The notes under the pieces were generated by a model. The model was not told the DNA's origin and ran no database searches. It saw nothing but the letters and a program-made list of their open reading frames with translations. The position numbers and the translations under genes are program-made. Below, one piece after another: positions 47,519 to 53,663 of a stretch of 64,000 bases of DNA (the stretch's first letter is position 1; each line of letters starts with the position of its first letter). Source of the DNA: Escherichia coli (GTDB lineage: Bacteria > Pseudomonadota > Gammaproteobacteria > Enterobacterales > Enterobacteriaceae); the NCBI RefSeq assembly GCF_003018255.1, contig NZ_CP027440.1; one strand, written 5' to 3'.

Positions 47519-48072
47519 CAGCGGCCTCCTGGAGACAGCGGATTTGCCAGCCAGTCACCGTAGGCTCTGGCGTGACTCGCCAGCTCCTGTGCGCTTTGCC
47601 GTCTCGCCCAGTAAATAATGATGGGACTCAACCAATGCATCCGGCACATGCCCGCCGCTAGTTCAAAGGGGCGCAGAACATCGCTCATCGGGTAGCGATT
47701 CAAGGCGTCATAACGGTAAGCACTTTCCGGCTCGCCGGTGGTAATCACGCTACGCCAGTACTTTCCCGCCAGTTGGTTTCCTCCCGGCCCGCTGGCAAAA
47801 CCACGGCTTAATACCCGGTCCAGCCACTCTTTCAGTAGCGCCGGGCAGCTATAGGTATAAAGAGGATGCTGAAAGACAATCACCTCGTGCTCGCGCAGTA
47901 ATGCCTGCTCACGGGGGATATCAATAAAAAAATCCGGATAGTGCGCATAAAGGTCGTGCACGGTAACATTGCTGAGCTGCGTGGCCGGTTTAAGCAGTAC
48001 CCGGTTTGCCACCGAGTCCTGAGATTCCGGATGGGCATACAGCAGCAAAACTTTCGCTGGCTGAGACATCAT
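47518..48072 (-). CDS. kefG: KefB ancillary protein KefG (flavodoxin-like)
   Basis: ORF track 184 aa; stop shares 1 nt with kefB start. Confidence 0.92.
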
Positions 48073-48199
48073 CCCCCTCCCGGTATGGTTTTTGTGTATA
48101 GTCGCTGTTTTGGGCTACCATTGCGCCCGGTGCGGCAGCTCGCCCATACATTACATTATCATAATGATAAGTTAACATAGTCTGAACATACGGCGCCTT

Positions 48200-50113
48200 A
48201 TGATTGTTTTCTCCTCGTTACAAATTCGTCGCGGCGTGCGCGTCCTGCTGGATAATGCCACCGCCACCATCAACCCCGGGCAGAAAGTCGGCCTGGTGGG
48301 TAAAAACGGCTGTGGTAAATCTACCCTGCTGGCATTGCTGAAAAATGAAATCAGCGCCGACGGCGGCAGCTACACCTTTCCGGGAAGCTGGCAACTGGCG
48401 TGGGTGAATCAGGAAACACCAGCGCTACCGCAAGCGGCGCTGGAATATGTCATTGACGGCGACCGTGAATATCGTCAACTGGAAGCGCAGCTACACGACG
48501 CCAACGAACGTAACGACGGGCACGCCATCGCCACTATTCATGGCAAGCTGGATGCTATCGACGCATGGAGTATTCGCTCCCGTGCCGCCAGCCTGCTGCA
48601 CGGCCTCGGTTTCAGCAATGAACAACTGGAGCGCCCGGTAAGTGATTTCTCCGGTGGCTGGCGTATGCGTCTTAACCTTGCCCAGGCGCTGATTTGCCGT
48701 TCAGACTTGCTGCTGCTCGATGAACCGACTAACCACCTCGATCTCGATGCCGTTATCTGGCTGGAAAAATGGCTGAAGAGCTATCAGGGCACGCTGATCC
48801 TGATCTCTCACGACCGCGACTTCCTCGATCCGATCGTTGATAAAATTATTCATATCGAACAACAAAGCATGTTCGAGTACACCGGCAACTACAGTTCGTT
48901 TGAAGTACAGCGCGCCACCCGTCTGGCGCAGCAACAAGCGATGTATGAAAGCCAGCAGGAACGCGTGGCGCATCTGCAAAGTTATATCGACCGTTTCCGT
49001 GCCAAAGCCACCAAAGCGAAGCAGGCCCAGAGCCGTATTAAGATGCTGGAGCGTATGGAGCTGATTGCCCCGGCGCACGTCGACAACCCGTTCCGCTTTA
49101 GCTTCCGCGCGCCGGAAAGCCTGCCTAATCCGTTATTAAAGATGGAAAAAGTCAGCGCAGGCTATGGTGATCGCATTATTCTCGACTCGATTAAACTGAA
49201 TCTGGTCCCCGGCTCGCGCATTGGTCTGCTAGGCCGTAACGGCGCGGGTAAATCGACATTAATCAAACTGTTAGCCGGCGAACTTGCGCCAGTCAGCGGT
49301 GAAATTGGTCTGGCGAAAGGGATCAAGCTCGGCTACTTCGCCCAGCATCAACTGGAATACCTGCGCGCCGACGAATCGCCTATTCAACATCTGGCACGTT
49401 TAGCGCCGCAGGAGCTGGAGCAAAAACTGCGTGACTACCTCGGCGGCTTTGGTTTCCAGGGCGATAAAGTAACCGAAGAAACACGCCGCTTCTCCGGTGG
49501 GGAAAAAGCCCGCCTGGTGCTGGCATTAATTGTCTGGCAGCGTCCGAATCTGCTGCTGCTCGACGAACCGACCAACCACCTTGACCTCGACATGCGTCAG
49601 GCACTCACCGAAGCATTAATCGAGTTCGAAGGTGCGCTGGTTGTCGTCTCGCACGACCGTCATTTGCTGCGTTCCACCACTGACGATCTCTACCTGGTTC
49701 ACGATCGTAAAGTCGAACCGTTCGACGGCGATCTGGAAGATTATCAACAGTGGTTGAGCGACGTACAAAAGCAGGAAAACCAGACCGACGAAGCGCCAAA
49801 AGAGAACGCGAACAGCGCCCAGGCACGTAAAGATCAGAAGCGTCGGGAAGCGGAGCTGCGTGCGCAAACCCAGCCACTGCGTAAAGAGATTGCCCGTCTG
49901 GAAAAAGAGATGGAGAAGCTGAACGCGCAACTGGCGCAGGCGGAAGAGAAACTCGGCGACAGCGAACTGTATGACCAGAGCCGTAAAGCGGAGTTGACCG
50001 CCTGCCTGCAACAGCAAGCCAGCGCCAAATCCGGCCTGGAAGAGTGCGAAATGGCGTGGCTGGAAGCCCAGGAGCAGCTTGAGCAGATGCTGCTGGAAGG
50101 GCAAAGCAACTGA
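48200..50113 (+). CDS. yheS: ABC-F family ATPase YheS (two ABC domains, no TM domain)
   Basis: ORF track 637 aa; two Walker A motifs (GKNGCGKST, GRNGAGKST), two LSGG signatures, C-terminal coiled-coil. Confidence 0.93.
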   Translation: MIVFSSLQIRRGVRVLLDNATATINPGQKVGLVGKNGCGKSTLLALLKNEISADGGSYTFPGSWQLAWVNQETPALPQAALEYVIDGDREYRQLEAQLHDANERNDGHAIATIHGKLDAIDAWSIRSRAASLLHGLGFSNEQLERPVSDFSGGWRMRLNLAQALICRSDLLLLDEPTNHLDLDAVIWLEKWLKSYQGTLILISHDRDFLDPIVDKIIHIEQQSMFEYTGNYSSFEVQRATRLAQQQAMYESQQERVAHLQSYIDRFRAKATKAKQAQSRIKMLERMELIAPAHVDNPFRFSFRAPESLPNPLLKMEKVSAGYGDRIILDSIKLNLVPGSRIGLLGRNGAGKSTLIKLLAGELAPVSGEIGLAKGIKLGYFAQHQLEYLRADESPIQHLARLAPQELEQKLRDYLGGFGFQGDKVTEETRRFSGGEKARLVLALIVWQRPNLLLLDEPTNHLDLDMRQALTEALIEFEGALVVVSHDRHLLRSTTDDLYLVHDRKVEPFDGDLEDYQQWLSDVQKQENQTDEAPKENANSAQARKDQKRREAELRAQTQPLRKEIARLEKEMEKLNAQLAQAEEKLGDSELYDQSRKAELTACLQQQASAKSGLEECEMAWLEAQEQLEQMLLEGQSN

Positions 50114-51135
50114 TGGCGCAGATAACGACGACCGATGCCAATGAATTCAGCAGCAGTGCTGAATTCACCCCTATGCGCGGCTTTAGCAATTGTCATCTAC
50201 AAACCATGCTGCCGCGTCTGTTTCGTCGCAAGGTGAAATTCACCCCGCACTGGCAGCGACTGGAGTTGCCCGACGGCGATTTTGTCGATCTCGCATGGAG
50301 TGAAGACCCTGCCCAGGCGAACCATAAACCGCGTTTAGTGGTGTTTCACGGGCTGGAGGGCAGCCTCAATAGCCCTTACGCCCACGGTCTGGTCGAGGCG
50401 GCGCAAAAACGCGGCTGGCTGGGCGTGGTGATGCATTTTCGCGGATGCAGCGGTGAACCAAACCGTATGCACCGCATTTACCATTCGGGCGAAACCGAAG
50501 ACGCCAGCTGGTTTTTACGCTGGCTGCAGCGCGAATTTGGACATGCGCCAACGGCTGCCGTCGGCTATTCGCTCGGCGGTAATATGCTCGCCTGTTTGCT
50601 GGCAAAAGAAGGTAATAACCTCCCGATTGATGCAGCGGTAATTGTCTCCGCGCCATTTATGCTGGAAGCCTGTAGTTATCATATGGAAAAGGGCTTTTCC
50701 CGCGTTTATCAGCGTTACTTGCTGAACCTGTTAAAAGCCAATGCCGCGCGCAAGCTGGCAGCCTACCCCGGAACACTGCCGATTAATCTCGCGCAGTTAA
50801 AATCGGTACGTCGCATCCGTGAATTTGACGATCTGATCACCGCCAGAATTCACGGCTACGCTGACGCTATCGACTATTATCGTCAGTGTAGCGCCATGCC
50901 GATGCTGAACCGGATCGCCAAACCGACGCTGATTATTCACGCCAAAGACGATCCGTTTATGGATCATCAGGTGATCCCGAAACCGGAAAGTCTCCCCCCG
51001 CAGGTGGAGTATCAACTGACTGAACATGGCGGTCATGTTGGCTTTATTGGCGGTACATTACTTCATCCGCAAATGTGGCTGGAGTCACGCATTCCTGACT
51101 GGTTAACAACGTATCTGGAGGCGAAATCATGTTGA
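50113..51135 (+). CDS. yheT: Alpha/beta-hydrolase-fold protein YheT
   Basis: ORF track 340 aa; nucleophile elbow GYSLGG. Confidence 0.88.
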
Positions 51136-51347
51136 TTCCGTGGCAAGACCTCTCCCCCGAAACGCTGGAAAATTTAATTGAAAGCTTTGTGTTACGTGAA
51201 GGCACCGATTATGGTGAACATGAGCGTACACTTGAACAGAAAGTCGCCGACGTCAAACGCCAGCTACAGTGCGGAGAAGCGGTGCTGGTATGGTCGGAGC
51301 TGCACGAAACGGTCAATATCATGCCGCGCGGTCAGTTTCGCGAATAA
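51129..51347 (+). CDS. yheU: Uncharacterised protein YheU
   Basis: ORF track 72 aa; 7-nt overlap with yheT. Confidence 0.8.
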
Positions 51348-51400
51348 CCTGCAACCGTCGGCGGACGAGATAATAATGATAGCTAAGTCATGGAGTTACT

Positions 51401-52270
51401 ATGTCTGCCAAACATCCGGTCATTGCGGTAACAGGATCCAGCGGCGCGGGGACCACCACCACCAGCCTCGCGTTTCGTAAAATATTCGCGCAGTTAAATC
51501 TGCATGCAGCCGAGGTGGAAGGCGATAGTTTTCACCGTTACACCCGCCCGGAAATGGACATGGCGATCCGCAAAGCGCGCGACGCCGGGCGGCATATCAG
51601 CTACTTCGGCCCCGAAGCGAACGACTTTGGCCTGCTGGAACAAACCTTCATTGAATATGGTCAGAGCGGCAAAGGGAAATCTCGCAAATATCTGCATACG
51701 TACGACGAAGCCGTACCGTGGAATCAGGTGCCGGGAACATTCACCCCATGGCAACCTTTACCGGAACCCACTGATGTACTGTTTTATGAAGGGCTACACG
51801 GCGGCGTAGTCACGCCACAGCATAACGTTGCGCAGCATGTGGACTTACTGGTCGGCGTGGTGCCTATCGTTAACCTTGAGTGGATTCAAAAACTGATCCG
51901 CGACACCAGCGAGCGCGGGCACTCACGAGAAGCCGTGATGGACTCGGTAGTGCGTTCAATGGAAGACTATATCAACTACATCACACCGCAGTTTTCCCGC
52001 ACCCATCTTAACTTCCAGCGCGTTCCCACCGTCGACACTTCAAACCCGTTCGCGGCAAAAGGTATCCCGTCGCTGGATGAAAGCTTTGTGGTGATCCATT
52101 TTCGTAATCTGGAAGGGATCGATTTCCCCTGGCTGCTGGCGATGTTGCAAGGCTCATTCATTTCCCACATCAATACGTTAGTGGTGCCCGGCGGCAAAAT
52201 GGGTCTGGCAATGGAATTAATTATGCTGCCGCTGGTGCAACGATTGATGGAAGGAAAGAAAATCGAGTAA
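51401..52270 (+). CDS. prkB: Phosphoribulokinase homologue
   Basis: ORF track 289 aa; P-loop-like GSSGAGTTT near the N-terminus. Confidence 0.9.
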   Translation: MSAKHPVIAVTGSSGAGTTTTSLAFRKIFAQLNLHAAEVEGDSFHRYTRPEMDMAIRKARDAGRHISYFGPEANDFGLLEQTFIEYGQSGKGKSRKYLHTYDEAVPWNQVPGTFTPWQPLPEPTDVLFYEGLHGGVVTPQHNVAQHVDLLVGVVPIVNLEWIQKLIRDTSERGHSREAVMDSVVRSMEDYINYITPQFSRTHLNFQRVPTVDTSNPFAAKGIPSLDESFVVIHFRNLEGIDFPWLLAMLQGSFISHINTLVVPGGKMGLAMELIMLPLVQRLMEGKKIE

Positions 52271-52282
52271 CTTTGCTATTAC

Positions 52283-52304
52283 GCCGGATAAAATACTATC
52301 CGGC
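52283..52304. terminator. Inverted repeat between convergent prkB and yhfA (likely bidirectional terminator)
   Basis: gccggata-aaatac-tatccggc read in sequence. Confidence 0.5.
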
Positions 52305-52324
52305 TTCACAACGGGATAGTTAAA

Positions 52325-52729
52325 TCACGCGGCAACCACTTCATATGAGTGAGTAATATTCACCGCTTTTTCCAGCATCAACGCCACTGAACAATATTTC
52401 TCCGCAGAGAGATCAACCGCACGCGCAACCGCTGCGTCTTTCAGGTCGCGACCGGTGACGATAAAATGCAGATTAATGTGCGTAAACAGGCGTGGTGCCT
52501 CTTCGCGGCGTTCAGAGGTCAATTTTACTTCACAATCGACCACATCCTGACGCCCTTTTTGCAGAATAGAAACCACATCGATGGCACTGCAACCACCCGC
52601 CGCCATCAACACCATTTCCATCGGACTTGGTGCTTTATCGCCTGAGTTGCCGTCCATTAAAATCTGGTGACCAGAGGCGGATTCGCCCAGAAAAGTTAAC
52701 CCTTCGACCCACTTCACTCGCGCTTGCAT
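52325..52729 (-). CDS. yhfA: OsmC-family protein YhfA
   Basis: ORF track 134 aa. Confidence 0.88.
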   Translation of the reverse strand: MQARVKWVEGLTFLGESASGHQILMDGNSGDKAPSPMEMVLMAAGGCSAIDVVSILQKGRQDVVDCEVKLTSERREEAPRLFTHINLHFIVTGRDLKDAAVARAVDLSAEKYCSVALMLEKAVNITHSYEVVAA

Positions 52730-53030
52730 TTTTGCTACTCCACTGCGTCAATTTTCCTGACAGAGTACGCGTACTAACCAAATCGCGCAACGGAAGGCGA
52801 CCTGGGTCATGCTGAAGCGAGACACCAGGAGACACAAAGCGAAAGCTATGCTAAAACAGTCAGGATGCTACAGTAATACATTGATGTACTGCATGTATGC
52901 AAAGGACGTCACATTACCGTGCAGTACAGTTGATAGCCCCTTCCCAGGTAGCGGGAAGCATATTTCGGCAATCCAGAGACAGCGGCGTTATCTGGCTCTG
53001 GAGAAAGCTTATAACAGAGGATAACCGCGC

Positions 53031-53663
53031 ATGGTGCTTGGCAAACCGCAAACAGACCCGACTCTCGAATGGTTCTTGTCTCATTGCCACATTCATAAGT
53101 ACCCATCCAAGAGCACGCTTATTCACCAGGGTGAAAAAGCGGAAACGCTGTACTACATCGTTAAAGGCTCTGTGGCAGTGCTGATCAAAGACGAAGAGGG
53201 TAAAGAAATGATCCTCTCCTATCTGAATCAGGGTGATTTTATTGGCGAACTGGGCCTGTTTGAAGAGGGCCAGGAACGTAGCGCATGGGTACGTGCGAAA
53301 ACCGCCTGTGAAGTGGCTGAAATTTCGTACAAAAAATTTCGCCAATTGATTCAGGTAAACCCGGACATTCTGATGCGTCTGTCTGCACAGATGGCGCGTC
53401 GTCTGCAAGTCACTTCAGAGAAAGTGGGCAACCTGGCGTTCCTCGACGTGACGGGCCGCATTGCACAGACTCTGCTGAATCTGGCAAAACAACCGGATGC
53501 TATGACTCACCCGGACGGTATGCAAATCAAAATTACCCGTCAGGAAATCGGTCAGATTGTCGGCTGTTCTCGTGAAACAGTGGGGCGCATTCTGAAGATG
53601 CTGGAAGATCAGAACCTGATCTCCGCACACGGTAAAACCATCGTCGTTTACGGCACTCGTTAA
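53031..53663 (+). CDS. crp: cAMP receptor protein
   Basis: ORF track 210 aa; unmistakable CRP sequence with C-terminal HTH ([20 protein letters not shown]). Confidence 0.99.

What the first reader, a model, noticed from the sequence alone, without database searches (positions are those of the whole stretch)
51401..52270. Phosphoribulokinase homologue with no Calvin-cycle context
prkB encodes a full-length PRK-like P-loop kinase, but nothing resembling RuBisCO or other Calvin-cycle genes occurs in this window; the neighbours are yheSTU and yhfA/crp. Its physiological substrate in this context is not evident from sequence.
Basis: partly seen in the sequence, partly recalled or inferred. Interest (0 to 1): 0.2.

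Follow-up and report, generated by a model that had tools for sequence, protein, structure and literature searches.

The report
Orphan phosphoribulokinase gene prkB
This is the known but still uncharacterised E. coli gene prkB, an intact and strongly conserved copy of the Calvin-cycle enzyme phosphoribulokinase in bacteria that have no RuBisCO, so the use of its product remains a modest, long-standing puzzle.

Summary
Window 51401..52270 (+) is E. coli prkB (b3355), 289 aa and identical in protein sequence to K-12 PrkB. It is single-copy and full-length in 5,424 of 5,426 complete E. coli genomes. Neither the window nor 80 orthologous loci contain RuBisCO, FBPase or transketolase.

PrkB is a class-I phosphoribulokinase. 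It is 50% identical end to end to R. sphaeroides PRK (1A7J), and the model matches that structure at TM 0.90. Every P-loop, catalytic and Ru5P-binding residue is invariant in 81 orthologues.

These orthologues form a discrete, vertically inherited clade in heterotrophic Gammaproteobacteria (Enterobacterales, Aeromonas, Vibrionaceae, Alteromonadales). The clade is separate from RuBisCO-linked CbbPs and shows strong purifying selection (dN/dS 0.02-0.04).

It differs from Calvin-cycle PRKs in three ways:
- The universally conserved lid Arg187 is Ser in 81/81.
- Lys53 is Asp or Glu.
- An arginine cluster invariant in CbbPs is fully lost in Enterobacterales.

So the sequence does point to ribulose-5-phosphate, or a very close analogue, as substrate. 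What stays unknown is the fate of the product, which is regarded as a toxic dead end in E. coli.

Verdict: a real, already known orphan enzyme of modest interest.

The parts
51401..52270 (+). prkB coding sequence (289 aa plus stop), a class-I phosphoribulokinase orthologue
   Evidence: ORF. PF00485 at 1.3e-76 and NF011997 at 524.7 bits. 50% identity over 288 aa to 1A7J. AlphaFold pLDDT 90.2, TM 0.90/0.93 to 1A7J.
51392..51395 (+). Shine-Dalgarno GGAG, 5 nt upstream of the ATG
   Evidence: Sequence read directly. It is the only element of the yheU-prkB spacer conserved across Enterobacterales.
51434..51457 (+). P-loop, residues 12-19 (GSSGAGTT), lysine-less as in R. sphaeroides PRK (GSSGAGTS)
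   Evidence: G12, S13, S14, G15, G17 and T18 are invariant in 81 orthologues.
51524..51547 (+). Residues 42-49 (DSFHRYTR), containing D42, H45 and R49 (catalytic and Ru5P-phosphate binding)
   Evidence: Invariant in 81/81. H45 is cited as a Ru5P-binding residue in PMC5241800.
51557..51559 (+). Asp53 codon (GAC), a clade-specific replacement of the Lys/Arg53 found in all other class-I PRKs examined
   Evidence: D in 74, E in 6 and A in 1 of 81 orthologues. K or R in all CbbPs and in P0126, P0132 and P0133.
51890..51916 (+). Lid and catalytic segment, residues 164-172 (KLIRDTSER): K164, R167, D168, R172, equal to Rs K165, R168, D169, R173
   Evidence: Invariant in 81/81. K165 (Ru5P) and R168 (ATP) are cited in PMC5241800.
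51953..51958 (+). Arg185-Ser186 (CGT TCA). Ser replaces the universally conserved lid Arg187 of PRKs. The neighbouring Arg (Rs R186) is retained.
   Evidence: S in 81/81 and R186 in 81/81. Arg187 is conserved in 1A7J, 5B3F, 6GVE, 9QKO and 9QKN, where position 186 varies.
48200..51347 (+). yheS (48200-50113), yheT (50113-51135) and yheU (51129-51347): upstream genes on the same strand with overlapping junctions, the probable transcription unit that carries prkB
   Evidence: ORF overlaps. No terminator-like or consensus promoter site in the 53-bp yheU-prkB gap. bioRxiv 10.1101/2023.06.11.543863 calls yheT, yheU and prkB co-cistronic downstream genes of yheS. yheT-yheU-prkB adjacency is kept in 57 of 80 loci, out to Vibrio and Aeromonas.
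52283..52304 (.). Perfect 8-bp hairpin (GCCGGATA-aaatac-TATCCGGC) between the convergent stop codons of prkB and yhfA, a possible bidirectional transcript end
   Evidence: RNA fold of -16.8 kcal/mol, z = -2.8. There is no U-run, so a terminator function is inferred only.

Best explanation
prkB encodes a catalytically competent class-I (R. sphaeroides-type) phosphoribulokinase. It transfers the gamma-phosphate of ATP to C1 of D-ribulose-5-phosphate, or a near-identical ketopentose phosphate, to give ribulose-1,5-bisphosphate.

It is not part of a Calvin cycle. It belongs to a discrete orthologous group inherited vertically in the heterotrophic gammaproteobacterial lineage Enterobacterales-Aeromonadales-Vibrionales-Alteromonadales. 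In this group the enzyme kept the whole catalytic machinery. It lost the arginine cluster that is invariant in RuBisCO-linked CbbPs, which I take to be the NADH/AMP allosteric site. It also remodelled two basic residues near the active site and lid (K53 to D/E, R187 to S).

In E. coli the gene is the last in the yheS-yheT-yheU-prkB string. It is probably expressed at low level by read-through.

Shown here: identity, fold, residue conservation, clade structure, selection and absence of cbb genes.

Inferred: enzymatic activity, loss of NADH control, co-transcription, and a low-flux, non-carbon-fixing role for the product. That role could be an effector or signal of pentose-phosphate status, or the substrate of an unidentified RuBP-consuming or RuBP-dephosphorylating step.
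For: - Full-length homology: E 7.8e-94 and 50% identity to 1A7J. NF011997 scores 524.7 bits, higher than genuine CbbPs at 441-489.
- Fold: model pLDDT 90.2; TM 0.90/0.93 and rmsd 1.9 A to 1A7J, including the C-terminal oligomerisation domain.
- Active site: the P-loop, D42, H45, R49, Y98, H100, E131, K165, R168, D169, R173 and R186 are 100% invariant in 81 orthologues. By contrast, other orphan homologues (P0132, P0138) have lost them. This shows the catalytic site is specifically maintained here.
- Selection: dN/dS is 0.02-0.04, the lowest in the neighbourhood after crp. There are 17 synonymous and 0 non-synonymous differences to K-12. The gene is full-length in 5,424 of 5,426 E. coli genomes.
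- Clade: 63-99% identity within the clade against 48-58% to CbbPs. The clade is monophyletic and tracks the species tree.
- No cbb genes in the window or in 80 loci (1.64 Mb). True CbbPs sit beside RuBisCO.
- Operon.
- The product is detected in an E. coli differential-abundance table.
Against: - No enzymatic assay of this protein was found, and K-12 annotation still says 'putative'.
- Arg187, conserved in every solved PRK of all classes, is Ser in the whole clade, and K53 is acidic. This could mean altered ATP handling or a shifted substrate.
- The E. coli engineering literature treats RuBP as a non-metabolisable, toxic product. It assumes there is 'no substrate for Rubisco' without a heterologous PRK (PMC7463662).
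- From memory, early cloning work used E. coli as a PRK-null background. That argues for very low native activity or expression under laboratory conditions.
- No RuBP-consuming partner is suggested by the gene neighbourhood.
- The residue numbers of the allosteric site (R31, R221, R234, R257) are recalled from Kung et al. 1999. I could not verify them, because the papers are not held.
Confidence: 0.6

Rival explanations
1. Substrate- or donor-shifted kinase. The enteric-lineage PrkB keeps the PRK scaffold and phosphate-binding pocket. It now phosphorylates a different phosphosugar (for example xylulose-5-P, ribose-5-P or sedoheptulose-7-P), or uses a different phosphoryl donor or affinity regime. 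The annotation 'phosphoribulokinase' would then be wrong in detail.
For: Two charge-changing, clade-fixed substitutions occur at otherwise invariant basic positions. R187 to S is seen in 81/81, against Arg in all solved PRKs of every class. K53 to D/E is seen in 80/81. Ten positions are fixed differently from CbbPs. There is no known sink for RuBP in E. coli.
Against: Every residue assigned to Ru5P binding and catalysis is invariant. The adjacent R186 is retained in 81/81 and may substitute for R187. PrkB scores higher on the NCBIfam PRK model than true CbbPs do. From memory, R187Q in the R. sphaeroides enzyme mainly affected ATP saturation, not sugar specificity.
Confidence: 0.22
2. Non-catalytic or moonlighting role. 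PrkB acts mainly as a ligand-binding regulator or scaffold, for example sensing Ru5P or ATP and acting on the neighbouring crp or yheS functions, rather than as a flux-carrying enzyme.
For: Synteny with crp is conserved in 59 of 80 loci, and crp lies directly downstream in Vibrionaceae. The gene is co-cistronic with the ABCF translation factor yheS. PRK-derived proteins with dead active sites exist elsewhere (P0132, P0138).
Against: Catalytic Asp, Lys and Glu and the P-loop are invariant across 81 orthologues, which is unnecessary for a pure binder. The whole kefB-argD block is syntenic, so adjacency to crp carries little functional information. Alteromonadales keep prkB without crp nearby.
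Confidence: 0.08
3. Evolutionary relic. prkB is a leftover of an ancestral Calvin cycle with no present function and is drifting towards loss.
For: The clade is closest to the CbbP clade in the tree. The arginine cluster decays stepwise from Alteromonadales to Vibrionaceae to Enterobacterales. One E. coli genome has a truncated copy and one lacks the gene.
Against: dN/dS is 0.02-0.04, lower than argD, yheS and kefG. 110 of 289 positions are invariant across orders. The gene is full-length in 5,424 of 5,426 E. coli genomes. There are 0 non-synonymous against 17 synonymous changes to K-12.
Confidence: 0.02
4. Cryptic Calvin-cycle enzyme. RuBisCO or a RuBisCO-like protein is encoded elsewhere in the genome and uses PrkB's product.
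For: Only 64 kb of this genome and 20 kb or less of each other genome were examined here.
Against: Established knowledge: E. coli has no RuBisCO. Autotrophy and CO2-recycling engineering require heterologous RuBisCO and PRK (PMC7463662 and PMC10715213). There were 0 RuBisCO hits in 1.64 Mb around 81 prkB genes. True CbbPs are adjacent to RuBisCO.
Confidence: 0.01

Closest known systems
Rhodobacter (Cereibacter) sphaeroides phosphoribulokinase PrkA/CbbP, PDB 1A7J (class/type I bacterial PRK, octamer, NADH-activated, AMP-inhibited)
   Same: Same length (289 vs 290 aa). 50% identity end to end. Same fold (TM 0.90/0.93, 1.9 A). Identical lysine-less P-loop. All catalytic and Ru5P- or ATP-binding residues are shared.
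   Different: The PrkB gene is not in a cbb operon and has no RuBisCO nearby. R187 is Ser and K53 is Asp. The arginines R30, R31, R221, R234 and R257, invariant in CbbPs, are A, Q, K, H and H in E. coli. Quaternary structure and NADH/AMP control are untested.
RuBisCO-linked CbbP genes of other proteobacteria (represented by P0127 in cbbR/cbbF-cbbP-cbbT-cbbA-cbbL and P0129 in cbbM-cbbP)
   Same: Same family model (NF011997) and same active-site residues.
   Different: They form a separate, well-supported clade (97% bootstrap) and are 48-58% identical to the PrkB clade. Their context is a Calvin-cycle operon.
Other orphan class-I PRK homologues in heterotroph-like contexts (P0126 marine leuS-lptE/uvrD, P0133, P0132, P0138)
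   Same: No RuBisCO nearby. They share L150 and H202 with PrkB where CbbPs have K151 and D203.
   Different: They are only 44-52% identical to PrkB and branch elsewhere. They keep R187. P0132 and P0138 have lost the P-loop or catalytic residues and are probably pseudokinases, whereas PrkB has not.
Class/type II PRKs (cyanobacteria, plants; 6HZK, 6H7H, 6KEW) and archaeal PRK (M. hungatei 5B3F)
   Same: Same PRK/uridine-kinase superfamily core. H45, K165 and R168 equivalents are conserved (PMC5241800). Foldseek probability 1.0.
   Different: About 20% identity, TM 0.52-0.64, and a different C-terminal domain and dimer architecture. They are redox- or CP12-regulated or unregulated (bioRxiv 10.1101/422709). 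All work with a RuBisCO.
Uridine/cytidine kinase (Udk), the other branch of Pfam PF00485
   Same: Shared P-loop kinase core (Foldseek hits to UCK2 and T. thermophilus Udk, TM about 0.5).
   Different: The Udk models score far below their cut-offs (NF004018 27.5 vs 180; TIGR00235 22.7 vs 220). PrkB carries the PRK-specific Ru5P residues and the extra C-terminal domain.

Membership tests
Class-I (bacterial) phosphoribulokinase, EC 2.7.1.19 (Pfam PF00485 PRK branch; NCBIfam NF011997) | Full-length match to the curated family model, above its cut-off | tested here: met
   NF011997 at 524.7 bits against a cut-off of 362, covering residues 1-288. PF00485 at E 1.3e-76.
Class-I (bacterial) phosphoribulokinase, EC 2.7.1.19 (Pfam PF00485 PRK branch; NCBIfam NF011997) | Adenylate-kinase-like fold with lid plus the class-I C-terminal domain, as in 1A7J | tested here: met
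   AlphaFold model pLDDT 90.2. Foldseek to 1A7J: E 1.6e-35, TM 0.90/0.93, rmsd 1.9 A over 283 columns.
Class-I (bacterial) phosphoribulokinase, EC 2.7.1.19 (Pfam PF00485 PRK branch; NCBIfam NF011997) | Lysine-less P-loop G-S-S-G-A-G-T-[ST] | tested here: met
   GSSGAGTT at residues 12-19. Invariant in 81 orthologues except position 19, which is T or S.
Class-I (bacterial) phosphoribulokinase, EC 2.7.1.19 (Pfam PF00485 PRK branch; NCBIfam NF011997) | Catalytic and substrate residues D42, H45, R49, Y98/H100, E131, K165, R168, D169, R173 (Rs numbering) | tested here: met
   All present in E. coli and 100% invariant in 81 orthologues. The roles of H45, K165 and R168 are cited in PMC5241800. The roles of the others come from my memory of the Miziorko-lab papers listed.
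Class-I (bacterial) phosphoribulokinase, EC 2.7.1.19 (Pfam PF00485 PRK branch; NCBIfam NF011997) | Universally conserved mobile-lid arginine R187 | tested here: not met
   Ser in E. coli and in 81/81 orthologues. Arg in all CbbPs, in the other orphans, and in 5B3F, 6GVE, 9QKO and 9QKN. The neighbouring R186 is retained in 81/81 and may compensate (inference).
Class-I (bacterial) phosphoribulokinase, EC 2.7.1.19 (Pfam PF00485 PRK branch; NCBIfam NF011997) | Arginine cluster R30/R31/R221/R234/R257, invariant in CbbPs (recalled to be the NADH/AMP allosteric site) | tested here: not met
   E. coli has A30, Q31, K220, H233 and H256. The cluster is invariant in 9 CbbP-type sequences. It is partly kept in Alteromonadales and Vibrionaceae and lost in Enterobacterales. 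The functional assignment of these residues could not be verified.
Class-I (bacterial) phosphoribulokinase, EC 2.7.1.19 (Pfam PF00485 PRK branch; NCBIfam NF011997) | ATP:D-ribulose-5-phosphate 1-phosphotransferase activity | not testable with these tools
   No assay of E. coli PrkB was found in the held literature. K-12 annotation says 'putative'.
Class-I (bacterial) phosphoribulokinase, EC 2.7.1.19 (Pfam PF00485 PRK branch; NCBIfam NF011997) | Homo-octameric quaternary structure | not testable with these tools
   The C-terminal domain that forms the dimer and octamer contacts in 1A7J (PMC5241800) is present and superposes. The oligomeric state needs SEC-MALS or a crystal or cryo-EM structure.
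CbbP, the PRK operating in a Calvin-Benson-Bassham cycle | Genomic and physiological coupling to RuBisCO (cbb operon or co-occurrence) | tested here: not met
   No RuBisCO, FBPase or transketolase in the 64-kb window or in 80 orthologous loci. True CbbPs are adjacent to cbbL or cbbM. By established knowledge, E. coli lacks RuBisCO.
CbbP, the PRK operating in a Calvin-Benson-Bassham cycle | Phylogenetic placement inside the RuBisCO-linked clade | tested here: not met
   In the NJ tree, CbbPs (Rs, P0127, P0129, P0124) form their own clade at 97% bootstrap. PrkB orthologues form a separate monophyletic group. This is a small distance tree, so the deep order is not reliable.
Uridine kinase (Udk) | Score above the cut-off of the Udk equivalog models | tested here: not met
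   NF004018 at 27.5 bits against 180. TIGR00235 at 22.7 against 220.3.

The most novel reading that the evidence does not exclude
Enterobacterales, Vibrionales, Aeromonadales and Alteromonadales have a RuBisCO-independent ribulose-1,5-bisphosphate metabolism. PrkB deliberately makes RuBP, or a close bisphosphate, either as a regulatory metabolite reporting pentose-phosphate or energy status or as the entry to an undiscovered consuming enzyme. The clade-specific R187S and K53D/E changes and the loss of the CbbP arginine cluster would be adaptations that retune the enzyme from a high-flux, NADH-gated Calvin-cycle step to this new role.
Probability: 0.25. Interest if true: 0.65.

Novelty: already known. 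Interest (0 to 1): 0.3.

Why it matters
prkB is a core gene of the best-studied bacterium. It is more constrained than many biosynthetic genes, yet it has no assigned role. Its predicted product is treated as a toxic dead end by everyone who engineers CO2 fixation in E. coli. Resolving it would close a gap in the E. coli metabolic map. It could reveal a RuBP sink or phosphatase relevant to synthetic autotrophy strains. It would also clarify how a Calvin-cycle enzyme was repurposed in heterotrophs.

The present analysis makes the question sharper and directly testable. It defines a discrete subfamily, a short list of diagnostic substitutions (S186, D53, lost arginine cluster), and contrast proteins with dead active sites.

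It remains a single-gene annotation puzzle, not a new kind of system.

Tried and rejected
- Literature. Hits for 'prkB' were R. sphaeroides cbb genes, KEGG labels, plasmid names such as pRKbarA, or gene lists. The Miziorko-lab mutagenesis papers and Zheng et al. 2004 are not held.
- CRP regulation suggested by the crp neighbour. There is no CRP-consensus site in the prkB upstream gap. Window-wide CRP-like matches are at chance (27 found, 28.5 expected).
- Own promoter, terminator or RNA element. There is no consensus sigma-70 site or terminator in the yheU-prkB gap. The spacer is not conserved except for the SD. There were no Rfam hits in 48000-53200.
- Functional hint from the neighbourhood. 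The conserved neighbours are the same syntenic block (kefGB, yheSTU, yhfA, crp, argD, ast genes), with no sugar-phosphate or RuBP-related enzyme. I judged this to be inherited synteny rather than functional coupling.
- Natural PRK-RbcS fusion (P0001). Rejected: it is a plant transit peptide fused to E. coli PrkB, a synthetic construct.
- Searching with R. sphaeroides PRK for diverse CbbPs returned only Rhodobacterales at 84% identity or more. The CbbP comparison set is therefore small: 4 diverse sequences plus 5 Rhodobacterales.
- The genome-collection scan returned only the 80 best of more than 599 matches. The share of orphan versus cbb-linked class-I PRKs across all species could not be measured.
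Full report
OBSERVATION

The ORF list shows an ATG-initiated ORF at exactly 51401..52270 on the + strand, encoding 289 aa. A GGAG Shine-Dalgarno precedes it.

- It matches Pfam PF00485 (PRK, E 1.3e-76) and the NCBIfam equivalog NF011997 'phosphoribulokinase' over residues 1-288 (524.7 bits; cut-off 362). Uridine-kinase models score far below their cut-offs.
- The DNA is 100% identical to E. coli AR_0077, where the gene is annotated prkB.
- The segment occurs once in 5,425 of 5,426 complete E. coli genomes and is full-length in 5,424.
- The protein is identical to K-12 b3355, despite 2% DNA divergence (17 synonymous and 0 non-synonymous differences).
- K-12 still annotates b3355 as 'putative phosphoribulokinase'.

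The annotation of the whole window runs acrF, rrn operon, ribosomal-protein clusters, tufA/fusA, tusBCD, kefGB, yheSTU, prkB, yhfA, crp, yhfK, argD and nirBD. It contains no Calvin-cycle gene.

An explicit tblastn search used form I and form II RuBisCO, FBPase and transketolase taken from true cbb operons. It found nothing in the window.

WHAT THE PROTEIN IS

PrkB aligns end to end with the only solved class-I PRK, R. sphaeroides 1A7J (E 7.8e-94; 145 of 288 identical). An AlphaFold model (pLDDT 90.2) superposes on 1A7J with TM 0.90/0.93 and 1.9 A rmsd over 283 columns. That includes the C-terminal domain which mediates dimer and octamer contacts in the R. sphaeroides enzyme (PMC5241800).

Class-II, archaeal and uridine-kinase structures follow at TM 0.4-0.64.

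WHO ELSE HAS IT, AND IN WHAT CONTEXT

The family is compact. An exhaustive search of 1.84 billion cluster representatives gave only 183 at E of 1e-30 or better. The nearest full-length non-self representatives are only 44-54% identical.

Across Enterobacterales the protein is 83-97% identical.

The 80 best (68-99% identity) are all heterotrophic Gammaproteobacteria: Enterobacterales, Aeromonas, Vibrionaceae, Shewanella, Colwellia, Pseudoalteromonas, Idiomarina, Alishewanella and Rheinheimera.

Synteny is ancient. Of the 80 loci:
- 63 keep argD.
- 59 keep crp.
- 57 keep yheT.
- 57 keep yheU.
- 56 keep yhfA.

The tight same-strand string yheT-yheU-prkB is retained out to Vibrio, Photobacterium and Aeromonas. 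Where E. coli neighbours are missing, the flanks hold ast/arg genes or unrelated ORFs. None of the 80 loci contains RuBisCO, FBPase or transketolase, while the CbbP control query hits all 81.

Context look-ups for the 50%-cluster representatives show that class-I PRKs come in two kinds:
- P0127 lies in cbbR/cbbF-cbbP-cbbT-cbbA-cbbL, and P0129 directly follows cbbM.
- P0126 (marine, between leuS-lptE and uvrD), P0132 and P0133 are orphans in unrelated contexts.

Gurrieri et al. had already noted putative PRKs in heterotrophic prokaryotes (bioRxiv 10.1101/422709). The phenomenon itself is therefore not new.

In a small NJ tree the PrkB orthologues are monophyletic, and their branching follows organismal phylogeny. 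The RuBisCO-linked sequences form their own clade at 97% bootstrap. The deep branching order of such a tree should not be over-read.

RESIDUE-LEVEL ANATOMY

In 81 PrkB orthologues, the following are 100% invariant (Rs numbering):
- The P-loop: G12, S13, S14, G15, G17, T18.
- D42, H45, R49, Y98, H100, E131, K165, R168, D169, R173 and R186.

PMC5241800 cites H45 and K165 as Ru5P-binding and R168 as ATP-binding. The other assignments I recall from the Miziorko-lab papers whose titles appear. I could not read those papers.

The contrast with other orphans is informative:
- P0132 has a destroyed P-loop plus D42G, E131R, K165R and R173Q.
- P0138 has H45L, R49D, Y98K, H100N and R168G.

Loss of catalysis does happen in this family when it is not needed, and it has not happened in PrkB.

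Three systematic deviations separate PrkB from Calvin-cycle PRKs.

(i) R187 is Ser in 81/81. This arginine is conserved in all CbbPs, in the other orphans, and even in archaeal, cyanobacterial and 'cyanobacteria-specific' PRK structures. In those structures the preceding position 186 varies. PrkB instead fixes Arg at 186.

(ii) K53 is Asp (74), Glu (6) or Ala (1). It is Lys or Arg everywhere else.

(iii) The arginines R30, R31, R221, R234 and R257 are invariant in nine CbbP-type sequences and degenerate in PrkB. The decay is stepwise:
- Alteromonadales keep R30, R234 and R257.
- Vibrionaceae keep R234 and R257.
- Enterobacterales keep essentially none. E. coli has A30, Q31, K220, H233 and H256.

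I recall this cluster as the NADH/AMP allosteric site of Kung et al. 1999. That assignment is unverified here. The conservation pattern is a direct result.

SELECTION

Pairwise dN/dS of prkB against Citrobacter, Enterobacter, Pluralibacter, Erwinia and Pectobacterium is 0.021-0.041. That is the lowest in the neighbourhood after crp (0.002-0.007), and below argD, yheS, yheT, yheU, kefG and yhfK. 110 of 289 positions are invariant across four orders. The gene is clearly functional.

EXPRESSION SIGNALS

- yheS/yheT and yheT/yheU overlap, and yheU-prkB are 53 bp apart.
- No consensus promoter, terminator or CRP site lies in that gap.
- The gap is not conserved except for the SD.
- There were no Rfam matches.
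- An ABCF preprint describes yheS-yheT-yheU as an operon and lists prkB as a co-cistronic downstream gene.
- A stable hairpin (52283-52304) sits between the convergent prkB and yhfA stops.

Co-transcription is inferred, not shown.

MECHANISM AND RIVALS

The best-supported reading (confidence about 0.6) is that PrkB is an active ATP-dependent kinase of ribulose-5-phosphate, or a near-identical substrate. It has been uncoupled from carbon fixation and from the CbbP-type arginine cluster, and it operates at low flux.

The main rival (about 0.2) is a shift in sugar or nucleotide specificity linked to R187S and K53D/E.

A purely regulatory role (about 0.08), a decaying relic (about 0.02) and a hidden RuBisCO (about 0.01) are much less likely, for the reasons given in their entries.

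The chief difficulty for the main reading is physiological. The E. coli engineering literature states that RuBP 'cannot be further metabolized', that PRK is toxic, and that RuBisCO alone has 'no substrate' (PMC7463662). This implies very low native activity or expression in laboratory conditions, or a substrate other than Ru5P.

COMPARISON AND NOVELTY

PrkB works like, and by sequence and fold is, a class-I PRK. It fails two family-wide conservation features (R187 and the arginine cluster). It also fails both tests for being a Calvin-cycle CbbP (context and clade).

The gene, its annotation and the existence of PRK homologues in heterotrophs are already known. What may be new is the delineation of the enteric-lineage subfamily and its diagnostic substitutions.

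I rate the finding as real, ordinary in kind and of modest interest (0.3). I give about a one-in-four chance that it hides a genuine RuBisCO-independent RuBP metabolism or signalling role.

Noticed in passing
protein P0001; corresponds to window 51401-52270: A 377-aa database entry is 100% identical to PrkB. It carries an N-terminal plant RbcS chloroplast transit peptide plus the first mature RbcS residues. This is a synthetic, patent-type construct targeting E. coli PrkB to plastids, not a natural fusion.
   Followed up: partly
proteins P0132 (locus L088 8001-8939) and P0138: These are PRK homologues with destroyed active sites. P0132 has P-loop GASDHST plus D42G, E131R, K165R and R173Q. P0138 has H45L, R49D, Y98K, H100N and R168G. 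They look like PRK-derived pseudokinases. P0132 still passes the NCBIfam 'equivalog' cut-off (365.3 vs 362), so it would be auto-annotated as phosphoribulokinase.
   Followed up: partly
loci L084-L086 (P0126) and L090-L091 (P0133): These are further orphan class-I PRKs outside the enteric lineage. One is marine/TARA, between leuS-lptE and uvrD, with an intact active site. The other lies between a YkuD-domain gene and truA. Orphan PRKs are therefore polyphyletic or widespread.
   Followed up: partly
window 51074-51130 (inside the 3' end of yheT, upstream of yheU): A CRP-like sequence TGTGGCTGGAGTCACG (2 mismatches) is followed by the only promoter-like site on the + strand (TTAACA-16-AATCAT). 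The window-wide count of such CRP-like matches is at chance (27 vs 28.5 expected), so this is probably meaningless.
   Followed up: partly
loci L043, L045, L049-L052, L054, L056, L059, L064, L068 (Vibrionaceae): yhfA is absent, and crp follows prkB directly on the same strand with a gap of about 230-250 bp. This raises the untested possibility of read-through from prkB into crp in vibrios.
   Followed up: no
E. coli records NZ_AP043965.1 (hit H23) and the summaries: One complete E. coli genome has prkB truncated to 53% of its length, annotated 'nucleoside/nucleotide kinase family protein'. One genome lacks it. One match lies on a record labelled plasmid. These are natural or assembly-level exceptions that could serve as knock-out comparisons.
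   Followed up: no
window about 52864-53142 (- strand), by transfer from K-12 coordinates: K-12 annotates a small antisense RNA, AsCRP (b4841), between yhfA and crp, overlapping the crp 5' end. Rfam has no model matching it in the window.
   Followed up: no
window 52283-52304: A perfect 8-bp GC-rich hairpin lies between the convergent stop codons of prkB and yhfA (dG -16.8 kcal/mol, z -2.8). It has no U-tract on either strand.
   Followed up: partly
window 51100-52400: Only 13 of 5,425 E. coli genomes are 99% or more identical to this window at the locus. K-12 is 97.8% identical over 12 kb. The source strain therefore belongs to a less-sampled E. coli lineage, though all the differences in prkB are synonymous.
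   Followed up: partly
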